From assembly GCA_000165345.1 (NCBI GenBank), contig CM000436.1, positions 960,001 to 1,024,000 of the forward strand: a stretch of 64,000 bases of DNA. Direction: 5' to 3'. The notes beneath the pieces were generated by a model. The model searched no databases and was not told the DNA's origin. It worked only from the letters and a program-made list of their open reading frames with translations. The stretch's first letter is position 1. Each line of letters begins with the position of its first letter. The translations under genes and the position numbers were made by a program. Positions 21,958-52,071 of the stretch are shown piece after piece.

Positions 21958-23460
21958 ATGACATCAAATAACGAGCGTTTTCTATATTCTAGTGAATTCA
22001 AGGGGGTGATTTTTGCAGGTGGCTCTGGTAGAATGTTGGGACCACTAGCAAAGAATATTTCAAAGGCAATGATCCCAGTATGTAATAAGCCAATGATATG
22101 GTACCCTTTATCTAATTTGATACAACATAGGATTAGAGATATATGTATATTTTGCGAGGAGGAGTTTGAGAATTCTATAAGAAAATATATTTCAGAGACG
22201 TTTTCAAATGATACGATAATTAAAAGGTTTGAATTTGAAGAAACATATCAACAAAATATTAAAATTATTGGATTAAAGGAAGATGAGTCTTTATTAGAAT
22301 CAAGTGGTACTTGGAGTATTCTATCAGAATATGGAAAAGAATTTTTACGAGATTCTGACTTCTTTGTCTTAACTTGTGATGTTATTGGACCATTAGATTT
22401 ATTAGGATTAGCAAATAAGCACCGTCTTACACAAGCTGTATGTACTATCTTATTAACAGAAAGTCCTGATTTATCCAAAATTAAAGGTTCTGGAAAGCAA
22501 ACCTCTAATTCAAATAATCAAGCTCAAGCAAATCCAATTGGAGGAATTTCAGTTGATTTGCAAAAAGATAAAAATAGAAGTATCTTTGTTATAGATGAAA
22601 AAGATGAAGTAATTCTATCTATAAAAGATTTTTATTCTGCTAAGCAAGAAAATGAAGTTTCCGAATTAAGCAAGCTTCAATTGTTTTGGCATCCCAATGT
22701 ATCATTACGTACGGATTTGGTAGACTTGCATGTATATCTATTCAAATCCTCCATTTTTAAGATCCTTGAAATTGCATCTGGGTCACAAAAAATATCCACA
22801 ATTGAATACCCAGAAGATGGAATTGAGTCAATCAGACTAGAACTTTTACCATTCCTTGCGAAAAATCAACATGTACCAGGTTCTGAGCTTTGGGGCAGGT
22901 CCAAGTTTGATTGTTATCACTTTCTAGACGACGAAATAACTACATCGAACGATTCATCTGTTAAATTCACTAAAATTGACCTTCCTCCGAAAATAGAAGG
23001 TACATCAGTATCATATTTCCTCCAAAAGCTCCCTCAAAATTCTTCTAGGGTAAACACTATCATGGCTTTACATGATTGCAATTTGGCGGCAACATCTCCC
23101 GCATACTTCCCTGCATGGCTAGCTGAAGAACATGATATAGGGACAAATGTGGGGAAGGAGGTAATCATCGGTCAAAATTGTAACCTTGGAAAAAGTGTGC
23201 AGTTAAGAAGATGTGTTATTGGGTCAAATGTTGAAATAGGAGATGGCTCTAAGATTGTAAACTGCGTTATTTTAGACAATACAAAGATAGGATCCAAGTG
23301 TACAATTCAGAACTCAGTCATTGGCCAATATTCTGAGATTGGCGATTCATGCAAAATTTCCTATTCTGTAATAGAGCATTATTTTAAAGTGGATGCCAAC
23401 TCAAAATCGCAGGGAGAGATAATGGAAAAGAGAGATGAACTCTTCGAGATCAGTATTTGA
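21958..23460 (+). CDS. translation initiation factor eIF2B gamma-like (NTP-transferase plus left-handed beta-helix)
   Basis: GVIFAGGSGRMLGPL...IPVCNKPMIWYPLSNL is similar to eIF2B-gamma. C-terminal hexapeptide repeats IGSNVEIGDGSKIVNCVILDNTKIG are present. Confidence 0.55.
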   Translation: MTSNNERFLYSSEFKGVIFAGGSGRMLGPLAKNISKAMIPVCNKPMIWYPLSNLIQHRIRDICIFCEEEFENSIRKYISETFSNDTIIKRFEFEETYQQNIKIIGLKEDESLLESSGTWSILSEYGKEFLRDSDFFVLTCDVIGPLDLLGLANKHRLTQAVCTILLTESPDLSKIKGSGKQTSNSNNQAQANPIGGISVDLQKDKNRSIFVIDEKDEVILSIKDFYSAKQENEVSELSKLQLFWHPNVSLRTDLVDLHVYLFKSSIFKILEIASGSQKISTIEYPEDGIESIRLELLPFLAKNQHVPGSELWGRSKFDCYHFLDDEITTSNDSSVKFTKIDLPPKIEGTSVSYFLQKLPQNSSRVNTIMALHDCNLAATSPAYFPAWLAEEHDIGTNVGKEVIIGQNCNLGKSVQLRRCVIGSNVEIGDGSKIVNCVILDNTKIGSKCTIQNSVIGQYSEIGDSCKISYSVIEHYFKVDANSKSQGEIMEKRDELFEISI

Positions 23461-23692
23461 TTATTTAATTTCCCATTAGTTTTTTTTATATAGCAGGTTT
23501 GCTCTCTAAATATTCTATTTTCATTATTCTAGTTTTCTGATTGCTATATTTAAAACAATAATTATCTCTAAACTAGTAAAACTCATAAAAGTTTTATTAT
23601 GTTTGTATTTAGAAAGATATTATCTATTTAACCTAACTAGATAAGAAATAATAAAAATAGATTAAGGATCAGTAAACCAAGTAACTATAAAT

Positions 23693-26236
23693 CTAACAGG
23701 AAGCAACTGTTATATTGAGTAATTCCCTAAGATTCTGAATTGAATTGAATGTTGCTTCTTTGAATAAATTAGAATCAGAGCAAGACTCTGCTGAGTTCAA
23801 GACGGCCTCAAGACTTGACTTTATATTGGAAGCAACGTTAATCAACTGAAGCCTCTTTTTGTTTTGACAGCTTTGAGGGTCTACGTAGACTTGTTCGACT
23901 AAAGTTAGTTCTTCAGCCTTTTCCCTTGATCTCTTGACAGTTTCTGAAGGGAGGCCAGAAAGTTCTGCAACATCAACTCCTAAAGACTTGTCTGTGAATC
24001 CTTTTTCAACTTTGTATAAGAACTTTAGAACTCCACTTCCTTGTTTAGAAAGAGATAGTGCTTTAGATGTAGATGCCGTTACTCTTAAATTAGTTACATT
24101 TGGGGTACTAGATGCAAGCGAACTGAGCTCATGAAAATGGGTAGCAAAAAGAGTATAACATTTTTTCTCACTAACAAGATAACTTGCAATGGACCATGCG
24201 AGGCCAAATCCATCAAATGTTGATGTACCACGCCCTAGTTCATCAACTATAACCAAAGTTCGCTCCGTTGCACTCCTTAGAATTGCAGACGCCTCAATCA
24301 TTTCAGCAAAGAAGGTAGAAATTCCAAGTATTTGCGCATCAGAAGCACCAACTCTACACATTAATTGATCCATTATAGGTATCTGTGCTTCTTGAGCAGG
24401 AACAAAGCATCCTATTTGGGCCAGTAAGGAACAAATAGCAATTTGGCGAATATAAGTTGATTTTCCACCCATATTTGGGCCTGTTATGATACTCAATAAA
24501 TTCCCATGACGGTGAAGTTCAACATCATTCGCAACAAACTGGCCAGTAGTAGAAACTGTTCCTTGGGCTTCAATTAATGGGTGACGAAGTTCCTTGCAGT
24601 AAAATCGGCAATTACAATTAGTGGATCCATCCTCCGAGATTTTCATTTCAGTTGCCAAATTGCATTTCCCATTGACCATTTTAGGCCTTACAAATGGAAT
24701 CTGGGCGCATAAAGACGTCATTGAAAAGCTCAAAAGAACGTCAATTGACCCCAAAATACCTGCAAGCCGAGAAACCAAAGACCAATAAGTAGAAGCTACA
24801 GATAAAGCCTTAACAAGTACTTGTTCTTGCTCATTATTATATTCTTTTATAACTTTTTCTTCACGATCTGAAAGGTCCATTAGCTCGTTTGTCCTAAAAA
24901 TATAATCATTCTTGTTTATTCTAACCTGTTTAAATCGCTTCTTATCTTGGAAATATTCTATGTCCCTCCTAGTGACTCTAAAACAAAGACTTGTATCAGC
25001 TCCTTCTCCTCTTATAACTCTAACAGCCTCTCTAGACCCTTCATTATATCCACGTTCTCTGCAGAGATATGCATCCAAATCTTTCCTGTGGGCCTCGATT
25101 TTACGTTGTATCCTATTCTTCTCTTCTGAAAGCTTTTCAAGTTCTGGGGTAAAATATGGAATAATCAAGTAGTTACCTTTGTCCGCTTCTTCAAGATCAA
25201 TAGTCTTTTCAACTAATCGAATATAGTCTTTAAACCTGTTCAATGTTGACTCCAATGGTACAAGAATTAGGTCATATACTGACTGAACAAAACTTGGAGA
25301 AGAATCTGAGTTCTTATTTTCCTCCAATGCATCCTTTATATCAGAAAAAATATTTCCTGATTGCATTACACTATCATACAACTTGACCATATCCTCTAAA
25401 CCGAACTTTGGTTCTCTCTCAGATTTTGAGCTTTCAGAAGCCATTAAAGAAGCAAATGTCCTAAATCGGACAGCTATTTGATCTAAATCGCAAACTTTAC
25501 GCATATGAATACCATACAATTTCTGACGTAAGAAGTCATTTTTACAAAAGAATTCTACAACATCTTGGCGTGAAATGATCTGTTTCTCATCAATAAGAGG
25601 TTGTCTTAGCCATTGCTCAAGTCTTCTAGCACCAACCTTAGTTCTAGTTTTGTTCAGCAACCCAAATAAATTTGTTGATGCTTTACTACTTTCTCCCTTG
25701 CTTGGAAAGATCCTTAATGATTGAACACAGGCAGAGTCCATTCTCATGAAAGTTTTAGTTACAAGAAACTTAATTTCACACTGAGAGTTATTCTCTTTAG
25801 ACTGGACTAACTGAAAATGTCTTATTAAGTTAAGCAATGAATGTCTAATCAATTCACTTTCTAACTCCTTCCCATAACTGCTGCATGACCTCCTTAATAG
25901 AGGAGAAATTATGACTTCAAAATCTTCAACAGTAGATGATTTTGGGAACTCGATTTCTTCGCATGTCCAATTATTGTTCATATCTAGTAAATTACGTAAA
26001 CGCTTTAAGCTTAAACAATCTTTCTGAACTGAGTAAACTACATTACTTGGCTGAGTCCTTACAAGTAAAGACTCTAATTCAGAAAGTTGTTCATTATCTT
26101 CTATATTTGCTACTGAAATTAATCCACTGTTTACATCAAAAAGAGAAATCCCAAGTTTTGGTTCAGTAATTGTCTGTTTTGCAACAATTGAGCAGAAAAT
26201 TCGAGTTTTAAAATTTATATCAATTGTGTTGTTCAT
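23693..26236 (-). CDS. MSH2: DNA mismatch repair protein MutS homologue, MSH2-like, 847 aa
   Basis: ITGPNMGGKSTYIRQIAICSLLAQIGCFVPA (Walker A) and DELGRGTSTFDGFGLAWSI are both present, as is the MutS domain order. The match to MSH2 is closest around the P-loop. Confidence 0.8.
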   Translation of the reverse strand: MNNTIDINFKTRIFCSIVAKQTITEPKLGISLFDVNSGLISVANIEDNEQLSELESLLVRTQPSNVVYSVQKDCLSLKRLRNLLDMNNNWTCEEIEFPKSSTVEDFEVIISPLLRRSCSSYGKELESELIRHSLLNLIRHFQLVQSKENNSQCEIKFLVTKTFMRMDSACVQSLRIFPSKGESSKASTNLFGLLNKTRTKVGARRLEQWLRQPLIDEKQIISRQDVVEFFCKNDFLRQKLYGIHMRKVCDLDQIAVRFRTFASLMASESSKSEREPKFGLEDMVKLYDSVMQSGNIFSDIKDALEENKNSDSSPSFVQSVYDLILVPLESTLNRFKDYIRLVEKTIDLEEADKGNYLIIPYFTPELEKLSEEKNRIQRKIEAHRKDLDAYLCRERGYNEGSREAVRVIRGEGADTSLCFRVTRRDIEYFQDKKRFKQVRINKNDYIFRTNELMDLSDREEKVIKEYNNEQEQVLVKALSVASTYWSLVSRLAGILGSIDVLLSFSMTSLCAQIPFVRPKMVNGKCNLATEMKISEDGSTNCNCRFYCKELRHPLIEAQGTVSTTGQFVANDVELHRHGNLLSIITGPNMGGKSTYIRQIAICSLLAQIGCFVPAQEAQIPIMDQLMCRVGASDAQILGISTFFAEMIEASAILRSATERTLVIVDELGRGTSTFDGFGLAWSIASYLVSEKKCYTLFATHFHELSSLASSTPNVTNLRVTASTSKALSLSKQGSGVLKFLYKVEKGFTDKSLGVDVAELSGLPSETVKRSREKAEELTLVEQVYVDPQSCQNKKRLQLINVASNIKSSLEAVLNSAESCSDSNLFKEATFNSIQNLRELLNITVASC

Positions 26237-26732
26237 CCTTTATTATTAATTATTAACTTTTTACTTCAAAAAATTCCTCATCTATTGATTTTACTTTTCT
26301 TTTAATTTCCAATTACATTTCCCCACAGTTATGAGGAGCCAAATGTAAAATATGCTATTATTAAAATTATATCGAAAAAATTACTCAAGTTTTATTTAAA
26401 TGAAGAAAAATAATACTTAATTATAATTTTCTGTTTCAATGTTTATTTATCTTTGTTTTTAAAATTATTTTTCTTAAATTCAAAATGTTATTAATTTTCA
26501 ATTTATTTTCACGTTTATTTCTTGATAGTTTTTAAGTCTATTACATGCGAATGATGAACATAGGAATTTTACACGTGATTTTCATACAAAATGTTAAAAT
26601 AAGAGGAAATTATTAATTAATTCAAGAAAAGTTGGTATAAAATGTCAAACAGATAAAAAGTGGCTGAATGAAATAAACAAGGTATAGTTAGGAATTAGAT
26701 TTTGATAGACAAATTTACTATATTTTGATATA

Positions 26733-27935
26733 TTATTGTATTTCAATATTAGGCTTCCACCATATTACATTAATACAAGCTAAAAGTAATTAGCATTCAC
26801 ATATATTTAAGGTGGTTAATGAACATACCTGAAGCAAAAAAGGCCTTTTTAGGGTTGAATGCAATGCATTTCGGTTGTCCAACATGACCAGTGAGATTAA
26901 CTATATGTTTTGCAGTAGTAGTTGACCAAATAGAGATAGTGGAATCCTGTAAACCATGGATTACGTACTGGGAATCACTTGAAAATACTGGCCTAGTTTC
27001 AGATTTTATTATATGGTCTAAATATAGAATAATAAATAACAGTAATATAATGAAATAGTTAAATGAGGCCATTATCCTCAATTAAATTAAGAACTTACTT
27101 GGAGATTTATTTACAGTTTTATATTCTTGGAATAGCTCTCCTCTGAATGAACTAATGGTGAAGATTTTTCCTAAATTGGTTTTAACTAATATAAGTCTGC
27201 CATCAGGACTGAATGTAATATGATCTATGTAATTTTTCTTTCCAATATGACTTGAAAGGTTAAAGGTATCAAAAGGAGAGTATGTTTTAGAATCATACAT
27301 AGTGATAATATGATCATCAGTTGCAACAGCAAAAGTTCGTCCTTCAGGGTCAAAAGCTGAGATTGGAGTTTTATTTTTTGTGGATTGAACTGCCAATGGG
27401 GTCTCAAGCTTAAAATTATATATAGATACTTTTGAATCATTTGTTGAAACAATGAATAAATCTTTGTTGGGATGCACAGAAATCCCATTATATGGCACGA
27501 CACTAAAAAGAGTTGAATAAAATGAATTAGAAATAATGATTTCCAAACATAAAGAAATATCTTAAATAAATTAACTTACCCAGATGAAAGTTTAGTAGCC
27601 CTAATATATCTATTTTCTTGAATATCCCATAGTCTGATAGTGGCATCACCATCTGTTTTGTTTGAAGCTACAAGGCATTGCTTGTTACTATGAGCGAATT
27701 TTATTGCATCCATACTATTCTTCCTAGAGTGGTGAATCCTGAAGATATCCCCAGAAGAAATGGTGTACACTCTTAATGTGTCGCTTTCACAAATGAGTAA
27801 TGAGTCGCCATCTTCACTCCAATCCATATTTGAAATAGGCGTGATCGCATCTTTAAATACACGGCATGCTTTAAATTTGGTAATCAAATCATCATTCAAA
27901 ACAGTTCTAGATTGTTCCAACATAATGATGAACAA
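26733..27935 (-). CDS. SWD2: WDR82/Swd2 WD40 protein, 4 exons (27580..27935, 27099..27502, 26829..27017, 26733..26779), 331 aa
   Basis: Three adjacent track ORFs join through GTAAGT, GTAAGT and GTATGT donors and pyrimidine-AG acceptors. The spliced C-terminus FNPKKAFFASACINVIWWKP matches WDR82 [35 protein letters not shown] matches WDR82 PVCSFDPEGLIFAAG. Confidence 0.7.
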
Positions 27936-28020
27936 CTATTATAGTCTGAATAGTTTAAATTTAACTATTAGAAATAAAACACTCAATGTAGAAAATGTAC
28001 AGCTTTTTGACATTCGTATA

Positions 28021-28045
28021 TTTGGCGCCAAAATGTTTATTTGGG
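28021..28045. promoter_or_regulatory. E2F-like site TTTGGCGCCAAAATGTTTATTTGGG, 90 bp upstream of the WDR82 start
   Basis: Direct reading. Confidence 0.5.
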
Positions 28046-28172
28046 AAATTTAAAGGGAATAATAATTAGATTATGAAAGAGAACAAAGAATTGAAACAAA
28101 GGCTAAGGAAGAATTTTTATTAAAATATGACTTAAGAAAGTGCATTAATTAATGCATTCTCCTGAAATGAAT

Positions 28173-29031
28173 CTACTCGTCTGATATAGAATCATCTTCG
28201 CGATAATATAGTAGAGGGGCATGGTAAATATCTCTACGTATGATTTCTCCAATATCGATATCATCAGAGATATTTTCTGAAAAAAAGTCGAAAAATGATA
28301 AAACACTATTTTTGTATTCCTCTTCATTTTCTTCAGTATCAATAAATTTCTTTTCAATAATTGATCTTGGGGACTCTTTCTTCCAGTTAATTTTGGTTAC
28401 TTCGTTTACAATTTCTTGGTTATCTTTAAAGATAATATGCTTGACTAAAATATTTGGCTCCATAAATTCAGATACTGCCTCATCAAATATTAATTTAATT
28501 TTATAGGACCCTTCATTATCTAGATTATCTTCTAACTCTATATCTTTTAAATATTCAAGAATATCAAAATCCTCAGGATGCATGTTATCTTGGAAAACGG
28601 GATGTCTGGAAATAGTGTCAGCCCAAAATTTGGGTATTTTTTCAATTATAGCTTTTCTTTCATCAAAAATTGGTTTTTTCTTCTCATCAAATTGTCTCTG
28701 AATAATCATTTGCTCCTTAGCACATTCACTGTCTAGCTCCATTAATCTGGTATCAACTAATAATTTTCATTATTACTCTCAAATCAAAAGCTAGAAAACT
28801 TACCTTCTTCAAGCTTTGAAATTAATTCCTGTTTTTCATCTGAATTTGTCTTATCCCTAAGATATAATTCAAAAACAATAACAGAGTTAAAGTTACCGTA
28901 AATACTGTTCAAAACTAAAAAATTCAGCCACACTTATTACTGCATTGCAATAATAGTGTACTGAAGTAAATTTAAAATTACCCCATATTAGAAGTCTCAG
29001 CAGTTTCTAAATCTAACTTTTGCTTTTTCAT
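28173..29031 (-). CDS. SET: SET/TAF-I-type NAP-family histone chaperone, 3 exons (28982..29031, 28804..28856, 28173..28756)
   Basis: IPKFWADTISRHPVFQD matches SET IPNFWVTTFVNHP. The 53-nt middle exon with its GTAAGT donor encodes DKTNSDEKQELISKLEE(V)DTRLMELDSECAKEQ, which continues the alignment to the SET dimerisation helix. The first exon MKKQKLDLETAETSNMG is less certain. Confidence 0.6.
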
Positions 29032-29358
29032 CTTTATTATATCACAGCTTCTATAGATTAAAATATGTTGCTTTATAATTCAATCTTTAGAGTAATTATT
29101 ATAACCGCCTTCGTTTTTTTTAGTAACTTTCATATTATAGTCAAATTTTGATTAATTGCCCGCCCGATTGTGCCGCCACTTTATATGGTTTTACACGACA
29201 TGTACATGTCATTTTTGGCCTGAAGTGTGATTGAATAATAATTTTTACTAAAAACAAAAATAGATAGAAATTGAGATAATTTTTTCAAAAGTAATACATG
29301 GAATCTTGTGGGAGTATCACAGAAGAGTGTATTTGAGAATTATACGTCTAAAGAAAGA

Positions 29359-31122
29359 ATGGCTTCTCTCAATGATATTAGTAAAGGTTCACAGGGGAGC
29401 CAGTTAATAGATTTAAATGGCTCTGAGAAGAGAAATGACTATATGGACTACATGTCACATTTGCAAAGTAGTGCTGCTCAATTGAGATATGAAAATAGTG
29501 TTTTAAAGAATGATAATGCAAATTTAGTATCAAAGTTGGACAGAGCTGTGAGTAAGAGTAGAAATGGAGTAGAAATACCAGAAAATGCAACAACAGCAGA
29601 AATTGCGGAGGCATTTGAAAAGTTGAATGATGAAAACTGCAGATTAAAGAGAGAAATGGAACGTTTGATACGATCAAATACTAGATATAGGGTTGCAATG
29701 CAAAATAGAGATCCTAGCTTAATTCCCTCTGAAGAACAAGATAAAAGTTTTTTTAACTCTGATGACTCTGGAGGAAGGTTATGCCAGTGTGAATATATAC
29801 TTAATGAAATTCTAGAAGCAGTTTCTTATAAGTTAGAAACTTATGAAAAGCATATCTGGGAACATAGATTAGCTACTTTAACTAGTGAAAGAGATGAAAT
29901 TGCTGTCCAGAATATTTCACTAGTAGATAGGCTAGCTGAAATTGAAGCAATTATTAAAGTAGATCATGTTCTTGCTGAAAGATTTAATGTTCCTCTAGAA
30001 GGTTGTGATGAAAAGAATCAAATATTAACTTTACACCGTAAGTTGGGCTTTGCATTGGATGTAAACCAGCAGCTCGAAAGAAGATTAGCTTTTGAAACGC
30101 AGCTTTCAAGATCTTGGCAAAGTAATATGCATACAATTGTTAGTGAGGTAAGTTTTTCCTAAAAAGTTTGCCATTTGCTAACTTTATTGTGACCAATTTC
30201 TAATTTCCCGCCACCCCACATTGCAATTATTACATGCATTTGCAAATTATTTGCACATTTTATAGTTAAGGCAATATATGTATGAACTTGGATCTATTAT
30301 AAAACAGTCAAATGGTTGTGAGATATTTAGAACTGTAAATTCTTCAGGTAAGTTACATATATGCAAACCAAATCCTTATAAAATGAAAATTATTTAACTG
30401 AAATTCTTTTTTTTTCAGACCAAACTGGTAATAAAGGCTCTGGAAGTATTGTGGAAGCTCCTGGTTACAGAAAAGCTGATAGAGAAAGTTTAAAGTTATT
30501 AAGGCTGGCAAAACAAAGAATTGAGGCTGATACAAAGAGATTAGAAACATGTAATAAAAGAATTATAGAATTAGAAAATGAGGTTGCATCATTAAGGGTA
30601 CGTAATCATTCATATATATATAGGGAAGGAGCAATAAACCATGATGCTGCAAGCAGAGGAATCATGAACGAAATTCTACCTCCACCAAAAATTTCAGCTC
30701 AGGATTTGACTGGAGGTCTAGTCAGATCATTTTCAAAAGCTCAAAATGACAATAATCTATTTTCTGCTAATAAAGGAGTACTCAATGTTAAATTGGATAA
30801 AGTTGATGAATCTGAAGATACTGGTAATAATACTCATGTCAAACAGGAAGTACTTCAATCCGAGGTTAATAAAAATTCAAGTAGCATTTCTCAAGAAAAA
30901 AACAAAAGTTCTAATGAAATTCATGATCTTGAGGAAGGAAATAGTACTCATAGAAGTCATCATAGTAGTCATCATAGTAGCCATCATAATACTCACCGTT
31001 CTCATACTCAAAGTCATTCTTCAACTCATAGAAGCCATCAATCTGGATCGTCCAATGATCATCATGGCCCTAAATCATCAAAATCTCATTCATCATCGTC
31101 ACATTCTAAGAAAGATAGATAG
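29359..31122 (+). CDS. coiled-coil protein with His/Ser-rich C-terminus, 3 exons (29359..30147, 30266..30347, 30419..31122), about 524 aa
   Basis: Track ORF 1 ends in GAG|GTAAGT. The exon from 30266 to 30347 is 82 nt, flanked by TTTTATAG and GTAAGT, and open in only one frame. It joins in phase to ORF 2, which has no ATG of its own (the track start is GTG). The first ATG of exon 1 is at 29359. Confidence 0.5.
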
Positions 31123-31466
31123 ATTATTAATATACTAATCATCTAATGCTTGCAGTGGTTATTTTCTGATTATGGAAAATAATATGAAATAATAAATTTA
31201 TTTCATATTAAATTTCTGGTTTTGCTCTATATATTACTAATTGCTATAACTTTATTATTAACATTAATTTTTTGTTTAACTTTTGTTCTTTTCAGGTTCA
31301 ATCAGTAAAAAATAAAAATTCAGTTTTTGCTACAGGATCAGTTACTACATCATGCTCAATATCATCCACAGAAAACGGTAAGTTGAAAAACACATTTAAT
31401 ATAAAAATTTATTATTATTAATTATATTAATTCATTATCAAATTTAATATAGGTATAAGATACAGT

Positions 31467-37499
<6,033 letters not shown>

Positions 37500-44910: not shown

Positions 44911-47900
44911 ATGAATCTGAATCTTGCAATTGCTAATTTGGGAGTTGAGGTAAGTTTATTTATAAGTAAAATATTCCAAGGAAAGTAATCTTGCAATTGT
45001 TTAACAAAAAAGAAAATTGTTGACATATTGCTTAAATACAAGCTTTCTTATAATATAAAGATATTTATTTATTTACTTTTTTTTTTATTAGGTTTATATT
45101 TCAAGCGTTCGAGAATTTGAGCTTCCAAACAATGATGATTATACAAATAATTCAGTAAATTGTATATGTGTATTGTGGTTGCCATATGAAGATCCATTGG
45201 AAATATTTGGGCTTCAACAAGGTATTAGGTGGGATCCAATTTTAGGAAGAAGATGTACTGGAGTAGCAGTTGCAAGGCCTTGTACAAAACCTGGAAAGTT
45301 GAAATCTCTAGAATGCGATTTTACTACATATATTCATGCACTGAATATTGCAAAAGTAAAATATGTTCATAATAAAGAAATTAATACAGTTTCAAATGAA
45401 TCAGATAGTGAAGAAATCTCTTGCTCTGAAAAATCAATTGGAAAGTGTATTGGAAATGCTAAATTTGAAAATGCCTTAAAATTTTGTGTTGAATTTCCGC
45501 ACAAGCATTACAACAATGCCCAAATTTATGATGGAAAGTATTGCATTTACAACCCTAACTTGGATGAAGTTCATCGCCTCTTATCTCCCGATGAAGATTC
45601 TAAAGAACCTATGCCAATTTTTGTTTCACTGGGGTATATCTCTGAAACTTCACAGAATTCTAGGGTATTTAGGCCAGCTTCAAAGTGGAGGAGGCCGATG
45701 AATGCAATTGGAGATGGAATATATAATTTAGAGAATTCAGATCCAATTAATTGGATTGGAACAGCAGTTATAACAAAGGAAGATTGGATTAGAAGCTATA
45801 CATCTGGGAGAGTATTTCCACTAAAGCTTCTCCCTCATTATCAATTAATGTCTTTGGTTGCAGATTATCGCAAACAAATATTGGATGAAAATAACATAAA
45901 AGAAAAGGAGACAAAGTTGTCCTTCATTAATTCATTAATGAGTGAAATTGAAAAGTTTAAAGTTGACATCTCAAATTCAAGACTAAATGGTGGTGATGCC
46001 AATGCCTCAAATGAAAAATGTGATAATAATTTTGGTACTATTCAAATACAGATTAAAACATTTGTATCATATCCAATAAGAACTGAAGGAGCATTAAAAC
46101 CTCTTGTCACTGTTTATAATCGCCAAGACCTGAAGAATCAATTTTTTTTAGCAAGTCTTTGTTGTGTAGATGTTATTCTTTTAGACGATGTTCCTGCTTG
46201 GAGCGACATTGATATATGGGATATTGCTCATTCTAAAATTCACATTTGTGTAGTATGGAAGCATGAAAGAAGGATTTTGCATCAAGGAGGAAATGCCCTT
46301 GAGTTATTTCCATATAGGTGTGTAAAAATTAATGGTCTTCCAGAAAATATTGAATTTAAAGATATGAAAACAATAAAAGAAAAAAATATAAAAATGAGAT
46401 GTTTATTCTCTGGAAGGGTATTATTAACTCCAGTTCCTGGGAGTGAGCCTGATATATATATATATATGTTATTAAATGGAAAACCATTTTCCTGTATTCG
46501 TGATCCTATTTCTATGAGAAATTTTGACCCAAGTACTTCCAATTATGATAAATATTATGATTTGGATAGGGTTGATTCAAGTGTCGAAAGTGTTATTAAG
46601 GAATTTGAGACAAGAGGAAGATTTTCTGGAACTTTAAAATGTAAAGTAAGTGTTTGGCCAGACAATTCGTGCTTTTTATCAAGAAAAGAATATTCTTACC
46701 TAAATCTTCGTCCTCAAAAAGGAATTGTATATAATATATTGCATGATTATCAAACTAAAATGCCTGATCACTATTCTGCTCCAACTTTAGGACCATATGG
46801 TGTATGGGTAGGATACTCTGTTAATGATAAAAGTGATGAGTTTATTGACTCTAAGAAATTCCAAAATCTATTTGATGAAGCAATTTATCAAATGAATTCT
46901 GCAACACATGAAGAAAAGCAAGTAATACCTATTGAAGATTATTCATATAAAAAAAATGATATTCAAAGTGATAGCGATGAAAACTTTAGTAATGATAAAT
47001 ATCTTATCGATACAAAAATCAATGCAATCGAACAATTGGATCCAGAATATATTGAAGGTGATTTGAAGAGATTTAATCAAGATATAAGATCTTTTAAGCC
47101 TTATGTACCTCACATGAGTACTTTGCTAGGATCTGGAATAAATCCAGGAGTTGCTGGAGAATGGATCACTTTTATAATTCAATCTAGAGATGAAGATGGA
47201 AATAAATCGTGTATTGGAAAGAGTAAAATTCATATTCGTTTAAGATCTGTTGGATACATCAAATATACATTTACGGCTGAACCTTATGGATTAGAATATA
47301 AAAATCCAAATAATGATGCATTAATTAATGTTGATGAAAGTGAAGTATGTAAGGTTGGTGTTGATCAAATTGATGTGCCAATAGAATGGTGTTCTGTTGA
47401 ATCTTATCATGGTGTATATAATTGTAGGATGAGATGTGAGAGATCTGGCCAATATTTATTGAGAGTTACAATGGATGGACTTCCTATTGGAGGATCTCCA
47501 TATGATGTTACTATCACTCCATCAATTCCAGAAGCAAAAGCATCTTCAACCATTGGTGAAGGAACTATTAAATGCAAGGCATGCCCAACAGTTAATTATA
47601 TGATAGATATTGAAGCTATTAAAGCATGTAAAGGTAAAGTTCCTAAGTATATTAATTCTTTTATTGTAATATTATGTGATGAGTTTGGAAATCGTATTTC
47701 TACTGGAGGACACCAATTAAAGGTTAAATGTAATTCAAAAATTGGCAAAATACATGCAATATATGATAATTGGGATGGTTCTTATGTAGTTTATTATACC
47801 ATTCATTTGGAAAAAACAATACAAAATTTTGATCAAAAAATTATAGATAAGATTAATGCAATATGTTATAAGAAAAATAATTCAAATCAGTTAAAAAGTT

Positions 47901-50900
47901 ATTCATATTCTAATCCAACTACTACTACTACTACTACAAGAGCAATCGAACAAGCATTGGGTGTAAGTACCAGGGTAACTAATTCAAAGATTGATTTTAA
48001 TAGTGAGGAGCTTGGTGGATTATTTAATACAAGAAAGTTACAACATATGACAAATTTTGAATATAATGATGAACATTTTTTGGAATCAGAAGAAGTTATT
48101 ATTACAAATATTTGTGATCTAGAAATTAGTGTTTATTTGAATAATAGGCCAATATATGGATCTCCATTTACTCCATATATAGATAATTTGGTAGAAATAC
48201 GAAATTGGTATAGAATTGTGGATTTAAATTCTTCTGATAGTACTGAAAGAAAGTTTGAAAAGTTATTAGAATCTGATGATTTTGAAGGAGCAATAAAGTT
48301 GATGAAAGAGTTAGAAAGAAAATATTTGCATGATTTTAAGGTAATATTAGAAGAATTGGAGAGAGATCCAACAGAACAAGAGCAAATTTTGGATAATGTT
48401 GGAAAGATTTCAAATGAACAAGATCAATGGACTTTGTTACAAAAGAATAAACAACGTTTAGAACAAATTATTAGAGATAATAATGATCGAGAAAATTTGA
48501 TTTTAACATTTGGAAGGTTTTTATTGAAAAGATTAGAGAGTCAAATGATAAGAAGACAAAAAGTTGATTCTGATTTATCATCATATAGAATATTAAAAGA
48601 AAATAATTTGGAACCATTATGTCATAGTTTAGAAGTTGAATATAATAAATTCCAACAACAAAGAACAAGAGAATTAATACGTTTAGTTTCATTATTAGAG
48701 ACAAATAAATTAAATTCATTAGAAGAATTAATGGAATTATATCAATTAATTGCTGATGAATTAAGATCATTAGGACGTGGAAATTTGGCTAATCAATTTG
48801 ATTTAGTTAATAGATGTTTAATAGAAGAGCAACAATTAACAAATATACGTGAAAGTTTACAAAGAAAGAGTGAAGTATTAGCAAAAATGGATGAAATGGT
48901 AACAACTAGAGAGAAAGCATTAGAAATGATTTTATCAAATTATAATCAAGCAATAAAAATGGAAGAGGATCATATTGAAGAAGAAATTGAGAAAATTAAA
49001 GTTGATATTTTAAGAAAACTAAATTTTAATCCAAGTACTGGCGTACAAACTGAGGATTCATTATCATTTACAGATACTATTATTGGACCATTAATATTGG
49101 ATCGAATTTTAGGTAATGATGAAAATCAATCAAAAAATGATTTTAATAATAATAATAATAATCATAATAATTATCATAAGAGTAATTTTAATAAATATTT
49201 TTCTATTATTGATCATAATAATAGTGATTATGCAATTCATGTTATGAAAATGTATTGGAAACCTTTAATGGAATGGGATTTAAAATGTTTTGTTAAGATA
49301 TTAAAACAATGTCCAAGAATATCTATTTGTTTGAGAGAATTATTTTCATATTTTGCAAATACAAGATGGAAGAATAATGAAACACAAATGAGTATATATG
49401 GTGATTTAATTCATAAAAGTGATAATGGTAATTATTATTCATATAAAAATAATAATTTTGGTAATAATAATGAAATAGAAGAAAGTATGAATAATAATAA
49501 TAATATTAATAATAATAATAATAATATTAATAATAATGATAATTTAACATCAATTGATAATAATAATCACAAATTTTCAAATAAAGAAAATATAAAATCA
49601 ATTAGTAAATGGACAGTAGGAACACCACTTGTTACATCAGATGATCCAAATTTAAGTATTTATAGAAAAGCAATGGGTATAACCAGAAATGGATTTAAAA
49701 GATTAATCATTTCATTAAATTTATCACCAGAATTAATTAAATCAGAAAAAACTATTGAAGGATTATTTCATAAATATAGTATGGAAAGAACAACAAGTAA
49801 TATACATTATAGTAATAAAAATGTTAGAGTAATAACACAAGAATTATGGATACCTTTATTAAGAGAATTAGCATATATTAATGCATTAGTACGTTTTGAT
49901 GTATTAAGACAATCAACTTTAGGTAGTAATGCATTATTAAGATTATATAAAAATATTAATGATTTTACAGGAAAAGTTGATTATTCAGTTTGGGAAAATA
50001 ATATATCTAGTACTAATATTGGAGAAAAATTAATGATTAATTTAGAAAGTGATGATTTTAAAGGATTAAGTCAAAATTTAATTAATTCAAAAAATAAAAT
50101 AAATGATGAACAAAATAATCAAAATAATATGAATAAAAATAAAAATAATAATAATAATAATAATAGTAATAATAATAATATAGAATTAGGAGGTAATCAT
50201 AAAAATCATGTATTACAATCAGGAGTTGCAGTAACACAAGATAATATTAAAGATTTAAATAGAGTAACTGCATTTAGACATTTTTGTGAATTACATTTAA
50301 TACCATTATATAAACAAGTTTATGGAAATGAAGATTTTACAACAATGTTAATGTTACCATTTTCTAAAATATTATCATCAGAACAAGATGAATTATTACG
50401 TGGATTAGATGCTATTGATTTAAAAGATAGTGGAGGAACATGTATTAATTCTGAAGAAATTTCTGGAGATAATTCTAATAAAGAATTAATAGAAAATAAG
50501 AAAAGATATTTATCAAGCCAATCAACACATGAAAAGGTTGAATGTAAAATTAATAATTGTTTAAAAATTGTTGTATCACAATTAAAAATGAATATAGCAT
50601 CAGCAATATTTATACAATTAGCATCAAAAAGTATGAAAGAATATGAATTTGATATAACACGTGAATTAGTAGAATTTAAAAGAATATCAAATGATGATGA
50701 TATATTAAAAAATTATTATGTAACAGAATTTGATTATATTAAACCTTTACAATTACATGAATATTTAACAAATATAGGTATGATACCTGGCCATATAAGT
50801 GGTAATGAAATGCATAACGTTGTAGAGAAAGTATTATCATCTAGAGAAGAATATTTACCAAAAGAATTACCAGTTACTTATAAATATCCAAAATCATTAT

Positions 50901-51052
50901 CATTTCCAGGATATATTGAAACTTTATCAATGTGTATAGCTAAAGGTATAGTAAATAAATTATCAGGATCATTATGGAGTGAGGGAGATATAAGAACAGA
51001 AGTTATTGAACATTTGGTATTATTTAATTTATATGATACATCAAGAATATAG
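44911..51052 (+). CDS. large protein with filamin-type Ig repeats, 2 exons (44911..44949, 45092..51052), about 1999 aa
   Basis: The track ORF starts at TTG with no in-frame ATG for 146 codons. Upstream, ATGAATCTGAATCTTGCAATTGCTAATTTGGGAGTTGAG|GTAAGT joins in frame via TTTTTTTTATTAG|GTT. Filamin-like repeat ends are YLLRVTMDGLPIGGSPYDVTITP and NNRPIYGSPFTPYID. Confidence 0.6.
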
Positions 51053-51061
51053 AAAATATTA

Positions 51062-51610
51062 TTAAAATAGAGCACCAGCTCTTTTAGCAGCATTAACAGC
51101 TGATAAAGCAATATTAGGTGTGGAAATACTAACTCCAACAGAACTTCCATTTAATATAATATTACCATGATCTTTATTTTCATCCATCATGGAATCTTGT
51201 GTAGAAATAACTCTTAATGCAGCTTTTTTACTGCTTTCTTCAATTTCACCAGCAAGAATAATTTCATCCAGAATAAAATAAGCTTTGTGGAAATTGAATA
51301 TAAGATCAAGTTCACAAACATTTCCAAAATATCGATCAAGTACTTCAACATAATGATGTATAATTTCAAGAGCAAGAAGTTCATTATCATTTTTATCAAT
51401 ACAAGCAACAAAATAAAGGCTTGCATATCTTTTAACAACAAGTGTGTGCCCTTTCCAATCGATAAAATTACATAATTTACCTTGTCTATTAATGATCATT
51501 TGCGTAACTTCTTTGATAAATCTTTTACGTTCTGATTGTTGATAAGATGAATACCATTTTTCCAATCTAGTTTTGCCTTGTCTGCTGATAAGTAGAAAGA
51601 ACCTGAACAT
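51062..51610 (-). CDS. AP1S: adaptor protein complex sigma subunit (AP-1 sigma-like) with a short C-terminal extension
   Basis: MFRFFLLISRQGKTRLEKWY...VVKRYASLYFVACI...EIIHHYVEVLDRYFGNVCELDLIFNFHKAYFILDE aligns with AP1S1. Confidence 0.75.
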   Translation of the reverse strand: MFRFFLLISRQGKTRLEKWYSSYQQSERKRFIKEVTQMIINRQGKLCNFIDWKGHTLVVKRYASLYFVACIDKNDNELLALEIIHHYVEVLDRYFGNVCELDLIFNFHKAYFILDEIILAGEIEESSKKAALRVISTQDSMMDENKDHGNIILNGSSVGVSISTPNIALSAVNAAKRAGALF

Positions 51611-52071
51611 AATTACTTTAAAAGAAAAGATACATATGTATTTATATGTATCTTTTTTTTTTTTTTTTTAAATCAAGTATGATTAATAAATAATAATTAT
51701 GAATACAAATATATTTTCAATATTGGGTATAATATTGAATTAAGATGAAGGAGAGGGGAAGAGATAAGATTGATAAATATTAAATATATATATATATATA
51801 TAAATGGATAATTAGGTTAGTCTTGGTTTATAATTAATAATATTATGTACAATATATTAATATATACGATCTTTGAGTATTCTTCTTTTTCTTTCTTTAA
51901 ATAAAATAATAATAAATTATTGAATGAATTACTTCAAGAAGTAAAATTCAATGTTGAATGATGGATGGGGGGCAAAAAAAGAAATATATAAGTCAATTGC
52001 AATTAATTAGAAAGTGGGGAAGGAAAAATAATAAATAAATTACATGGGAAAAAAAATAAATTTGAGAGAAT

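What the first reader, a model, noticed from the sequence alone, without database searches (positions are those of the whole stretch)
28173..29031. SET/NAP histone-chaperone gene with a 53-nt internal exon and a 16-codon first exon
The 189-aa track ORF has the NAP core (IPKFWADTISRHPVFQD). It begins mid-helix. Upstream on the minus strand lies a 53-nt exon (28804-28856). It has a GTAAGT donor and a pyrimidine-rich acceptor, and is open in one frame. It extends the alignment to the SET N-terminal helix: SDEKQELISKLEEVDTRLMELDSECAKEQMIIQRQFDEKKKPIF against SET [45 protein letters not shown]. A further 50-nt first exon (ATG at 29029-29031, donor GG|GTAATT, 125-nt intron) supplies the start. The predicted protein is about 228 aa.
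Basis: partly seen in the sequence, partly recalled or inferred. Interest (0 to 1): 0.5.

Follow-up and report, generated by a model that had tools for sequence, protein, structure and literature searches.

The report
Annotated Cryptosporidium SET-like histone chaperone gene
This is an ordinary three-exon gene of the parasite Cryptosporidium parvum for a small SET/NapS-type histone chaperone.

Summary
On the minus strand, exons 29031-28982 (50 nt), 28856-28804 (53 nt) and 28756-28173 (584 nt) join through GT..AG introns of 125 and 47 nt. They give a 687-nt CDS and a 228-aa protein.

The window is 100% identical to Cryptosporidium parvum IOWA II-BGF record CP141125.1. The spliced protein is residue-for-residue identical to the deposited 'Nucleosome assembly protein (NAP)' (QOY40163.1 / WRK34161.1), and the annotated gene span is the same 859 bp.

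The splice-signal pattern alone is no rarer than chance: 23 such sites in the window against 24 in shuffles. Three other lines of evidence make the model real:
- Homology to PfNapS (E 5e-50) and human SET (E 3e-22).
- Conservation of both tiny exons, their GT/AG sites and their phases in six Cryptosporidium species, plus a partial seventh contig, while intron lengths vary freely.
- A predicted continuous 53-residue dimerisation helix that crosses the exon 2/3 junction.

A rival deposited 220-aa model uses an AG 24 nt further in. That AG is missing in C. canis and C. bovis, and the model deletes conserved helix residues.

The protein is the Cryptosporidium orthologue of Plasmodium NapS, in the SET/NRP/Vps75 branch of the NAP family, and it lacks the long acidic tail. 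Verdict: already known, low interest.

The parts
28982..29031 (-). Exon 1, coding part: ATG plus 16 codons plus 2 nt (MKKQKLDLETAETSNM, then G split across the junction). Basic N-terminus, predicted disordered.
   Evidence: A 50- or 53-nt MKKQK/MKRQK exon with a GT donor in the same phase is found in six Cryptosporidium species. An MKR... start is also present in the Plasmodium and Theileria orthologues. pLDDT is below 50 for residues 1-17.
28857..28981 (-). Intron 1, 125 nt, GTAATT...TTAG, phase 2.
   Evidence: There is a stop directly after the donor in the exon-1 frame. Its length is 60-131 nt across species, not constrained to multiples of 3, and it is gap-rich in alignments.
28804..28856 (-). 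Exon 2, 53 nt (…DKTNSDEKQELISKLEE). It encodes the N-terminal start of the dimerisation helix.
   Evidence: It is 53 nt in five species and 50 nt in C. felis, so the frame is preserved, with flanking AG and GT in all. It aligns to SET residues about 20-37. The predicted helix starts at residue 20.
28757..28803 (-). Intron 2, 47 nt, GTAAGT...TTAG, phase 1.
   Evidence: Its length is 47-79 nt across species. It contains stops in the exon-2 frame.
28173..28756 (-). Exon 3, coding part (residues 35-228 plus stop TAG at 28175-28173). It holds the rest of the helix and the alpha/beta NAP 'earmuff' domain.
   Evidence: It contains the 189-aa ORF. The Pfam NAP best stretch, residues 74-198, corresponds to window 28266-28640. 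The model has mean pLDDT 84.3 and its top Foldseek hit is PfNapS 5x7v.
28644..28849 (-). Coding span of the predicted long dimerisation helix (residues 20-72), interrupted by intron 2.
   Evidence: DSSP on the AF2 model gives H20-72, with block pLDDT of 86-95. It corresponds to PfNapS alpha2 residues 33-73, whose dimer contacts F33, I36, Q37 and I40 map to Cp L32, V35, D36 and L39. All four lie upstream of the 189-aa ORF's Met40.
28733..28734 (-). Alternative AG acceptor used by the rival 220-aa deposited models. The exon would then start at 28732, deleting VDTRLMEL.
   Evidence: P0003 and P0004 lack VDTRLMEL. The AG is present in C. parvum, C. meleagridis, C. felis and two Logan contigs, but it is TG in C. 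canis and C. bovis.
29032..29358 (.). 327-bp divergent intergenic region between this gene's ATG and the ATG of the plus-strand 524-aa neighbour. Presumed 5' UTRs and shared promoter (inferred).
   Evidence: Gene table of L001 mapped to the window. An in-frame stop lies 20 codons upstream of the ATG, with no intervening ATG.

Best explanation
Window 28173-29031 (minus strand) is the complete coding region of the Cryptosporidium parvum gene for a small NAP-family histone chaperone. It is the orthologue of Plasmodium falciparum NapS and belongs to the SET/TAF-Ibeta - NRP - Vps75 branch.

Two short spliceosomal introns (125 and 47 nt) are removed to join a 50-nt start exon, a 53-nt internal exon and a 584-nt main exon into a 228-aa protein. 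Residues 1-17 form a basic, disordered N-terminus. Residues 20-72 form one long helix. By analogy with PfNapS and SET, this helix pairs antiparallel with a second copy to make the 'headphone' dimer. Residues 74-220 form the alpha/beta 'earmuff' domain that binds histones.

Shown here: the exon structure, its conservation, the family assignment and the predicted fold. Inferred from characterised relatives: dimerisation, nuclear histone binding and chaperoning.
For: - Exact identity of the spliced product to deposited protein QOY40163.1 / WRK34161.1, with the same gene span in CP141125.1 and CP044415.1. The window is 100% identical to CP141125.1, whose annotation was manually curated with RNA-seq and Iso-Seq (PMC12179316).
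- Both introns, their GT..AG ends and their phases are conserved in C. parvum, C. meleagridis, C. canis, C. felis, C. bovis and an unnamed Cryptosporidium contig. Exon lengths change only by 0 or 3 nt, while intron lengths range over 60-131 and 47-79 nt.
- Pfam NAP at 61.9 bits against a cutoff of 28.6.
- phmmer against PDB: PfNapS 5x7v E 4.6e-50, SET 2e50 E 2.9e-22, NRP1 3.6e-17, Vps75 7e-12, NAP1 5e-10, PfNapL 4e-3.
- The AF2 model has mean pLDDT 84.3 and a single helix 20-72 running through the exon 2/3 junction. The top Foldseek hits are PfNapS, SET and NRP1.
- PfNapS is nuclear, apparently essential, binds core and linker histones and dimerises through alpha2 (PMC2873526).
Against: - No transcript data could be examined directly here, so splice-junction usage rests on conservation, homology and third-party annotation.
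- Two other GenBank depositions (WKS79659.1, KAL5367140.1) annotate a 220-aa product with a different acceptor.
- The splice-signal pattern alone is not statistically unusual.
- Exons 1 and 2 are only modestly more conserved at the nucleotide level than the introns.
- No biochemical work on the Cryptosporidium protein was found.
Confidence: 0.92

Rival explanations
1. The main product is the 220-aa form. Intron 2 would end at the AG 24 nt further downstream (window 28734-28733), removing VDTRLMEL, as annotated in WKS79659.1 and KAL5367140.1.
For: Two independent GenBank depositions carry this model. The AG exists in C. parvum and the frame is kept.
Against: - The AG is absent (TG) in C. canis and C. 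bovis.
- VDxxLMEL is conserved as protein in all species. Substitutions there are concentrated at third codon positions: 64 of 112 pairwise differences.
- The segment aligns without a gap to PfNapS and SET alpha2.
- It contains the equivalents of PfNapS dimer contacts I36, Q37 and I40.
- It lies inside a high-confidence continuous helix.
- The Iso-Seq-curated annotation uses the upstream acceptor.
- It could still be a minor alternative 3' splice-site isoform.
Confidence: 0.05
2. Only the 189-aa single-exon ORF (28173-28742, starting at MELD) is translated, and the two upstream mini-exons are chance matches. The C. bovis model and the Logan gene calls are annotated this way.
For: - Mechanical ORF.
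- Several deposited or automatic models start at this Met (P0007, P0008, P0009).
- The signal pattern alone is at chance level.
Against: - The same two mini-exons, in the same phase and with GT/AG, are present upstream in those very loci (L007, L008, L009).
- The ORF would start at residue 40 of a helix spanning 20-72 and lose conserved dimer-contact positions.
- All non-Cryptosporidium orthologues have 30-40 further N-terminal residues that align with exons 1-2.
Confidence: 0.02
3. Exons 2 and 3 are right, but a different start is used, for example an ATG inside intron 1 as in the deposited C. canis model, or another upstream exon.
For: The C. canis model P0005 starts MSWLPPYTFSSESN from within the intron-1 equivalent.
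Against: - In C. parvum, intron 1 has no ATG that is in frame and open into exon 2. The exon-2 frame upstream reads ...*VWLNFLVLNSIYGNFNSVIVFELYLR and begins with GTG after a stop.
- The MKKQK exon with its donor is conserved in all six species, including C. canis itself.
- It matches the MKR start of the Plasmodium and Theileria orthologues.
Confidence: 0.01

Closest known systems
Plasmodium falciparum NapS (PfNapS; PDB 3KYP, 5X7V)
   Same: - Best sequence hit (E 4.6e-50; Foldseek reports 42-44% identity over about 193 alignment columns) and best structural hit.
- Same architecture: short basic N-terminus, long alpha2 dimerisation helix, earmuff domain, and no NAP1 accessory domain.
- Dimer-contact residues are largely conserved: C46, E49, Q50, I53, Q54, K60, K61, F65, R68, I71 and I72.
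   Different: - PfNapS-type proteins are 266-287 aa with a 50-70-residue Asp/Glu tail. The Cryptosporidium protein stops 9 residues after LLYY.
- The loop between beta4 and alpha7 differs (FIDTEENEEEYKNSVL).
- No experimental data exist for the Cryptosporidium protein.
Human SET / TAF-Ibeta / I2PP2A / INHAT (PDB 2E50, 7MTO, 9I15)
   Same: - Second-best relatives (E about 3e-22, 25-27% identity; TM-score normalised to the target up to 0.83).
   Different: - SET has an ordered N-terminal helix alpha1 and a long acidic C-terminal tail.
- PP2A-inhibitor and INHAT activities are metazoan functions that were not tested here and cannot be inferred for this protein.
Arabidopsis NRP1/NRP2 and fungal Vps75 / S. 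pombe Ccp1
   Same: Same short-NAP fold without the accessory domain (E 4e-17 for NRP1 and 7e-12 for Vps75).
   Different: Lower similarity. Vps75 works with the Rtt109 acetyltransferase, and no such partner was looked for here.
NAP1 proper (yeast Nap1, NAP1L1, PfNapL)
   Same: Same Pfam family PF00956 and the same headphone fold.
   Different: NAP1 proteins are longer (about 300-420 aa), with an accessory domain and a beta-hairpin NLS. Scores are much weaker: 5e-10 for yeast Nap1 and 4e-3 for PfNapL.

Membership tests
NAP family (Pfam PF00956) | Sequence match to the NAP profile above the curated gathering score | tested here: met
   61.9 bits against a cutoff of 28.6, E 7e-17. The 189-aa ORF alone scores 57.7 bits.
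NAP family (Pfam PF00956) | Fold: a long N-terminal helix followed by an alpha/beta 'earmuff' domain with a 4-stranded antiparallel sheet | tested here: met
   AF2 model with mean pLDDT 84.3 and pTM 0.75. It has helix H20-72 and then strands E104-111, E119-125, E137-145 and E148-154. Foldseek probability is 1.00 to PfNapS, SET, NRP1, Vps75 and Nap1. This is a prediction, not a solved structure.
NAP family (Pfam PF00956) | Homodimerisation through antiparallel pairing of the long helix | not testable with these tools
   Only indirect evidence: most PfNapS alpha2 contact residues are conserved. No multimer prediction or experiment was available.
NAP family (Pfam PF00956) | Binding and chaperoning of core histones | not testable with these tools
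   Inferred from PfNapS and SET (PMC2873526). No Cryptosporidium study was found.
SET/NapS/NRP/Vps75 branch (short NAPs) | Closer to SET-type than to NAP1-type proteins, and lacking the NAP1 accessory domain | tested here: met
   Bit scores: PfNapS 174, SET 83, NRP1 66, Vps75 49, yeast Nap1 43, PfNapL 20. The 228-aa protein aligns end to end with the SET core without a large insertion. No phylogenetic tree was built.
SET/NapS/NRP/Vps75 branch (short NAPs) | Long acidic C-terminal tail (present in SET, PfNapS and NRP; typical of the branch but not strictly defining) | tested here: not met
   The tail after LLYY is REDDSISDE, 9 residues. All Cryptosporidium orthologues end at the same place, and no acidic ORF lies in the 249 bp downstream.
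Spliceosomal (U2-type GT-AG) intron-containing gene | GT..AG boundaries that restore one continuous frame, at positions and phases conserved in orthologues | tested here: met
Spliceosomal (U2-type GT-AG) intron-containing gene | Junction-spanning transcripts | not testable with these tools
   No read data were accessible. The record's annotation is stated to be RNA-seq and Iso-Seq curated.

The most novel reading that the evidence does not exclude
Cryptosporidium's only SET/NapS-type chaperone is naturally 'tail-less': 9 residues after the core, against 50-70 acidic residues in Plasmodium and SET. It may therefore handle histones with the core alone. In addition, the AG 24 nt inside exon 3 could give a minor 220-aa isoform with an 8-residue-shorter dimerisation helix, a possible regulated or dominant-negative form. 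Neither reading is excluded by the evidence here, and neither is supported beyond the sequence facts.
Probability: 0.1. Interest if true: 0.25.

Novelty: already known. Interest (0 to 1): 0.08.

Why it matters
It matters little as a discovery. The gene, its exon structure and its family are already in GenBank, and the Plasmodium orthologue is structurally and functionally characterised.

There is some practical value. The result shows the first-stage reader can reconstruct micro-exon gene models correctly from raw sequence. The cross-species comparison also flags probable 5'-end mis-annotations of this gene:
- C. canis: start placed inside intron 1.
- C. felis: exon 2 skipped.
- C. bovis: bare ORF only.
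- Two C. parvum-lineage depositions: 220-aa form.

The tail-less architecture is a small lineage-specific curiosity for anyone working on apicomplexan chromatin.

Tried and rejected
- The search for related loci on genome contigs returned nothing, because that collection holds only bacteria and archaea. Orthologous DNA was obtained instead through the look-up of encoding contigs.
- A literature search for '5X7V' found nothing. The entry was identified as PfNapS by a protein search and by the Foldseek description.
- A search for Cryptosporidium plus 'nucleosome assembly protein' found no study of this protein.
- A motif-only significance test showed the splice-signal pattern is at chance level. 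It was therefore rejected as evidence by itself.
- tRNA and Rfam scans of the window were empty.
- A hidden downstream exon encoding an acidic tail was considered and rejected. There is no D/E-rich frame in 27924-28172, and the stop position is conserved in all species.
- The 189-aa and 220-aa models and an intronic start were considered and rejected (see the rival explanations).

Full report
**What is in the sequence.**
Reading window 27800-29500 on the minus strand and splicing by script confirms each coordinate in the finding.
- The ATG is at 29031-29029.
- Exon 1 is 29031-28982, 50 nt, ending ...AATATGG|GTAATT.
- Intron 1 is 28981-28857, 125 nt, T-rich at its 3' end and ending TTAG.
- Exon 2 is 28856-28804, 53 nt, followed by GTAAGT.
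- Intron 2 is 28803-28757, 47 nt, ending TTAG.
- Exon 3 is 28756-28173 and contains the mechanical 189-aa ORF listed.

The joined CDS is 687 nt and encodes 228 aa (MKKQKLDLETAETSNMGDKTNSDEKQELISKLEEVDTRLMELDSEC...). Both introns have stop codons in the incoming frame. An in-frame stop lies 20 codons upstream of the ATG, with no ATG in between.

**Is it more than chance?**
The signal pattern alone is not. GTAAGT preceded by an AG 40-70 nt upstream, with at least one open frame, occurs 23 times in the window against about 24 in composition-matched shuffles. The model has to stand on other evidence, and it does.

**Identity of the locus.**
A protein search with the spliced model returned a 228-aa protein, 100% identical over 100% of the query. 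It is named 'Nucleosome assembly protein (NAP) [Cryptosporidium parvum]' (P0001), with accessions QOY40163.1 (CPATCC_004255) and WRK34161.1.

Its gene spans 859 bp in CP141125.1 (GCA_035232765.1) and in CP044415.1 (GCA_015245375.1). That is the length of 28173-29031. The 12.9-kb locus from CP141125.1 is 100% identical to window 22173-35031. The window is therefore C. parvum IOWA II-BGF, with window x equal to record x + 951814, and the gene is at record positions 979987-980845 on the minus strand.

The data paper for that assembly says gene models were lifted from IOWA-ATCC, predicted with RNA-seq-trained BRAKER2, and manually curated in WebApollo with Iso-Seq tracks (PMC12179316).

**Independent comparative test.**
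I fetched the orthologous loci of C. meleagridis, C. canis, C. felis, C. bovis and two unnamed Cryptosporidium contigs from sequencing runs and examined the DNA upstream of the big exon. In every species, the following elements are present in the same order and phases:
- an MKKQK/MKRQK-initiated exon of 50 or 53 nt;
- a GT donor;
- an AG acceptor;
- a second exon of 53 nt (50 nt in C. felis);
- a GTAAGT or GTAGGT donor;
- an AG acceptor directly before (V)D-x-x-L-M-E-L/I-D.

Resplicing gives 228-233-aa proteins that align end to end. Exon lengths differ only by 0 or 3 nt. Intron 1 is 60-131 nt and intron 2 is 47-79 nt, with many non-triplet gaps. This is the signature of real coding micro-exons.

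Several deposited models appear to be 5'-truncated or mis-spliced relative to this conserved structure:
- C. canis starts inside intron 1.
- C. felis skips exon 2.
- C. bovis and the automatic calls keep only the bare ORF.

**The 220-aa rival.**
Two depositions (WKS79659.1, KAL5367140.1) use an AG 24 nt inside exon 3 (window 28734-28733), which deletes VDTRLMEL. Five observations argue against this as the main product:
- The AG is TG in C. canis and C. bovis.
- The deleted residues are conserved, with substitutions concentrated at third codon positions: 64 of 112 pairwise differences.
- They align without a gap to PfNapS and SET.
- They include the equivalents of PfNapS dimer contacts I36, Q37 and I40.
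- They lie within a confidently predicted continuous helix.

I rate it at most a minor isoform.

**What the protein is.**
Pfam NAP scores 61.9 bits against a cutoff of 28.6. Against all PDB sequences, the order of relatives is:

| Relative | PDB | E-value |
|---|---|---|
| PfNapS | 5x7v | 4.6e-50 |
| Human SET | 2e50, 9i15, 7mto | about 3e-22 |
| Arabidopsis NRP1/2 | | about 4e-17 |
| Vps75 | | 7e-12 |
| Yeast/C. elegans Nap1 | | about 5e-10 |
| PfNapL | | 4e-3 |

The 5x7v chain was identified as Plasmodium NapS in two ways. A protein search gave 99% identity to a Laverania 'nucleosome assembly protein', and the PDB title names it.

An AlphaFold2 model built on 15 apicomplexan sequences has mean pLDDT 84.3 and pTM 0.75. 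It shows:
- a disordered N-terminus, residues 1-17 (exon 1);
- one helix spanning residues 20-72, which starts in exon 2 and runs through the exon 2/3 junction;
- a four-stranded alpha/beta domain.

Foldseek ranks PfNapS, SET and NRP1 first.

**How it most likely works (inferred).**
By analogy with PfNapS, the long helix should pair antiparallel to form the headphone-shaped dimer, and the earmuff domains should bind histones for nucleosome assembly and disassembly. PfNapS is nuclear, refractory to knockout, binds the H3-H4 tetramer, the octamer and H1, and dimerises through 23 alpha2 residues (PMC2873526). SET behaves similarly.

Most alpha2 contact residues are conserved in the Cryptosporidium protein. 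Four of them (L32, V35, D36, L39) are supplied only when exon 2 and the upstream acceptor are used. That gives a functional reason for the micro-exon structure.

**Differences from relatives.**
All Cryptosporidium orthologues end 9 residues after the conserved LLYY (REDDSISDE in C. parvum). Plasmodium NapS proteins carry 50-70 Asp/Glu residues, and SET has a long acidic tail. The 249 bp downstream, before the next gene, contain no acidic reading frame. This tail-less state is the only mildly unusual feature.

**Context.**
The gene sits between a divergently transcribed 524-aa protein with no Pfam match (window 29359-31122, plus strand) and a WD40-repeat gene (27923-26733, minus strand). A MutS-family gene lies further downstream. 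Synteny is kept in the other species. No tRNA or Rfam family was found in the window.

**Verdict.**
The feature is real but already known and annotated, so interest is low.

Noticed in passing
L005 2001-2720 (C. canis), L006 2001-2848 (C. felis), L007 2001-2582 (C. bovis): Deposited orthologue models disagree with the conserved three-exon structure. C. canis starts at an ATG inside intron 1, C. felis skips the 50-nt exon 2, and C. bovis is only the bare 193-aa ORF. Resplicing gives 228-233 aa in every species.
   Followed up: yes
window 28173-28201 (C-terminus of the protein): All Cryptosporidium NapS/SET-like proteins end 9 residues after LLYY. They lack the 50-70-residue acidic tail of the Plasmodium orthologues, and no downstream acidic exon exists.
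   Followed up: partly
window 33136-33471: A purine-rich (AAG/GAG) tandem repeat with periods of 51, 57 and 150 nt lies inside the 2010-aa ORF 31467-37499 (plus strand; faint cNMP-binding hit). The protein is 2014 aa in one C. parvum assembly and 2010 aa in the other. Whether the repeat accounts for that difference was not checked.
   Followed up: no
window 29359-31122 (+): The divergent neighbour is a 524-aa protein with no Pfam hit. It is split into two ORF blocks (29308-30162 and 30451-31122), so it too contains an intron, and it has a His/Ser-rich C-terminus (HRSHHSSHHSSHH...). In the C. bovis locus no such gene is called between the NAP gene and the cNMP-binding gene.
   Followed up: no
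window 26733-27923 (-): The WD40-repeat gene downstream is annotated as 327 aa in CP141125.1 and 322 aa in CP044415.1, with different 3' ends. It is not called at all in the C. felis record.
   Followed up: no
window 48001-52000 and 35660-35768: The lowest GC in the window (23%) coincides with AAT/TAA triplet arrays at 49490-49608 and 50114-180, inside the 1959-aa ORF 45173-51052. These probably encode Asn-rich low-complexity tracts.
   Followed up: no
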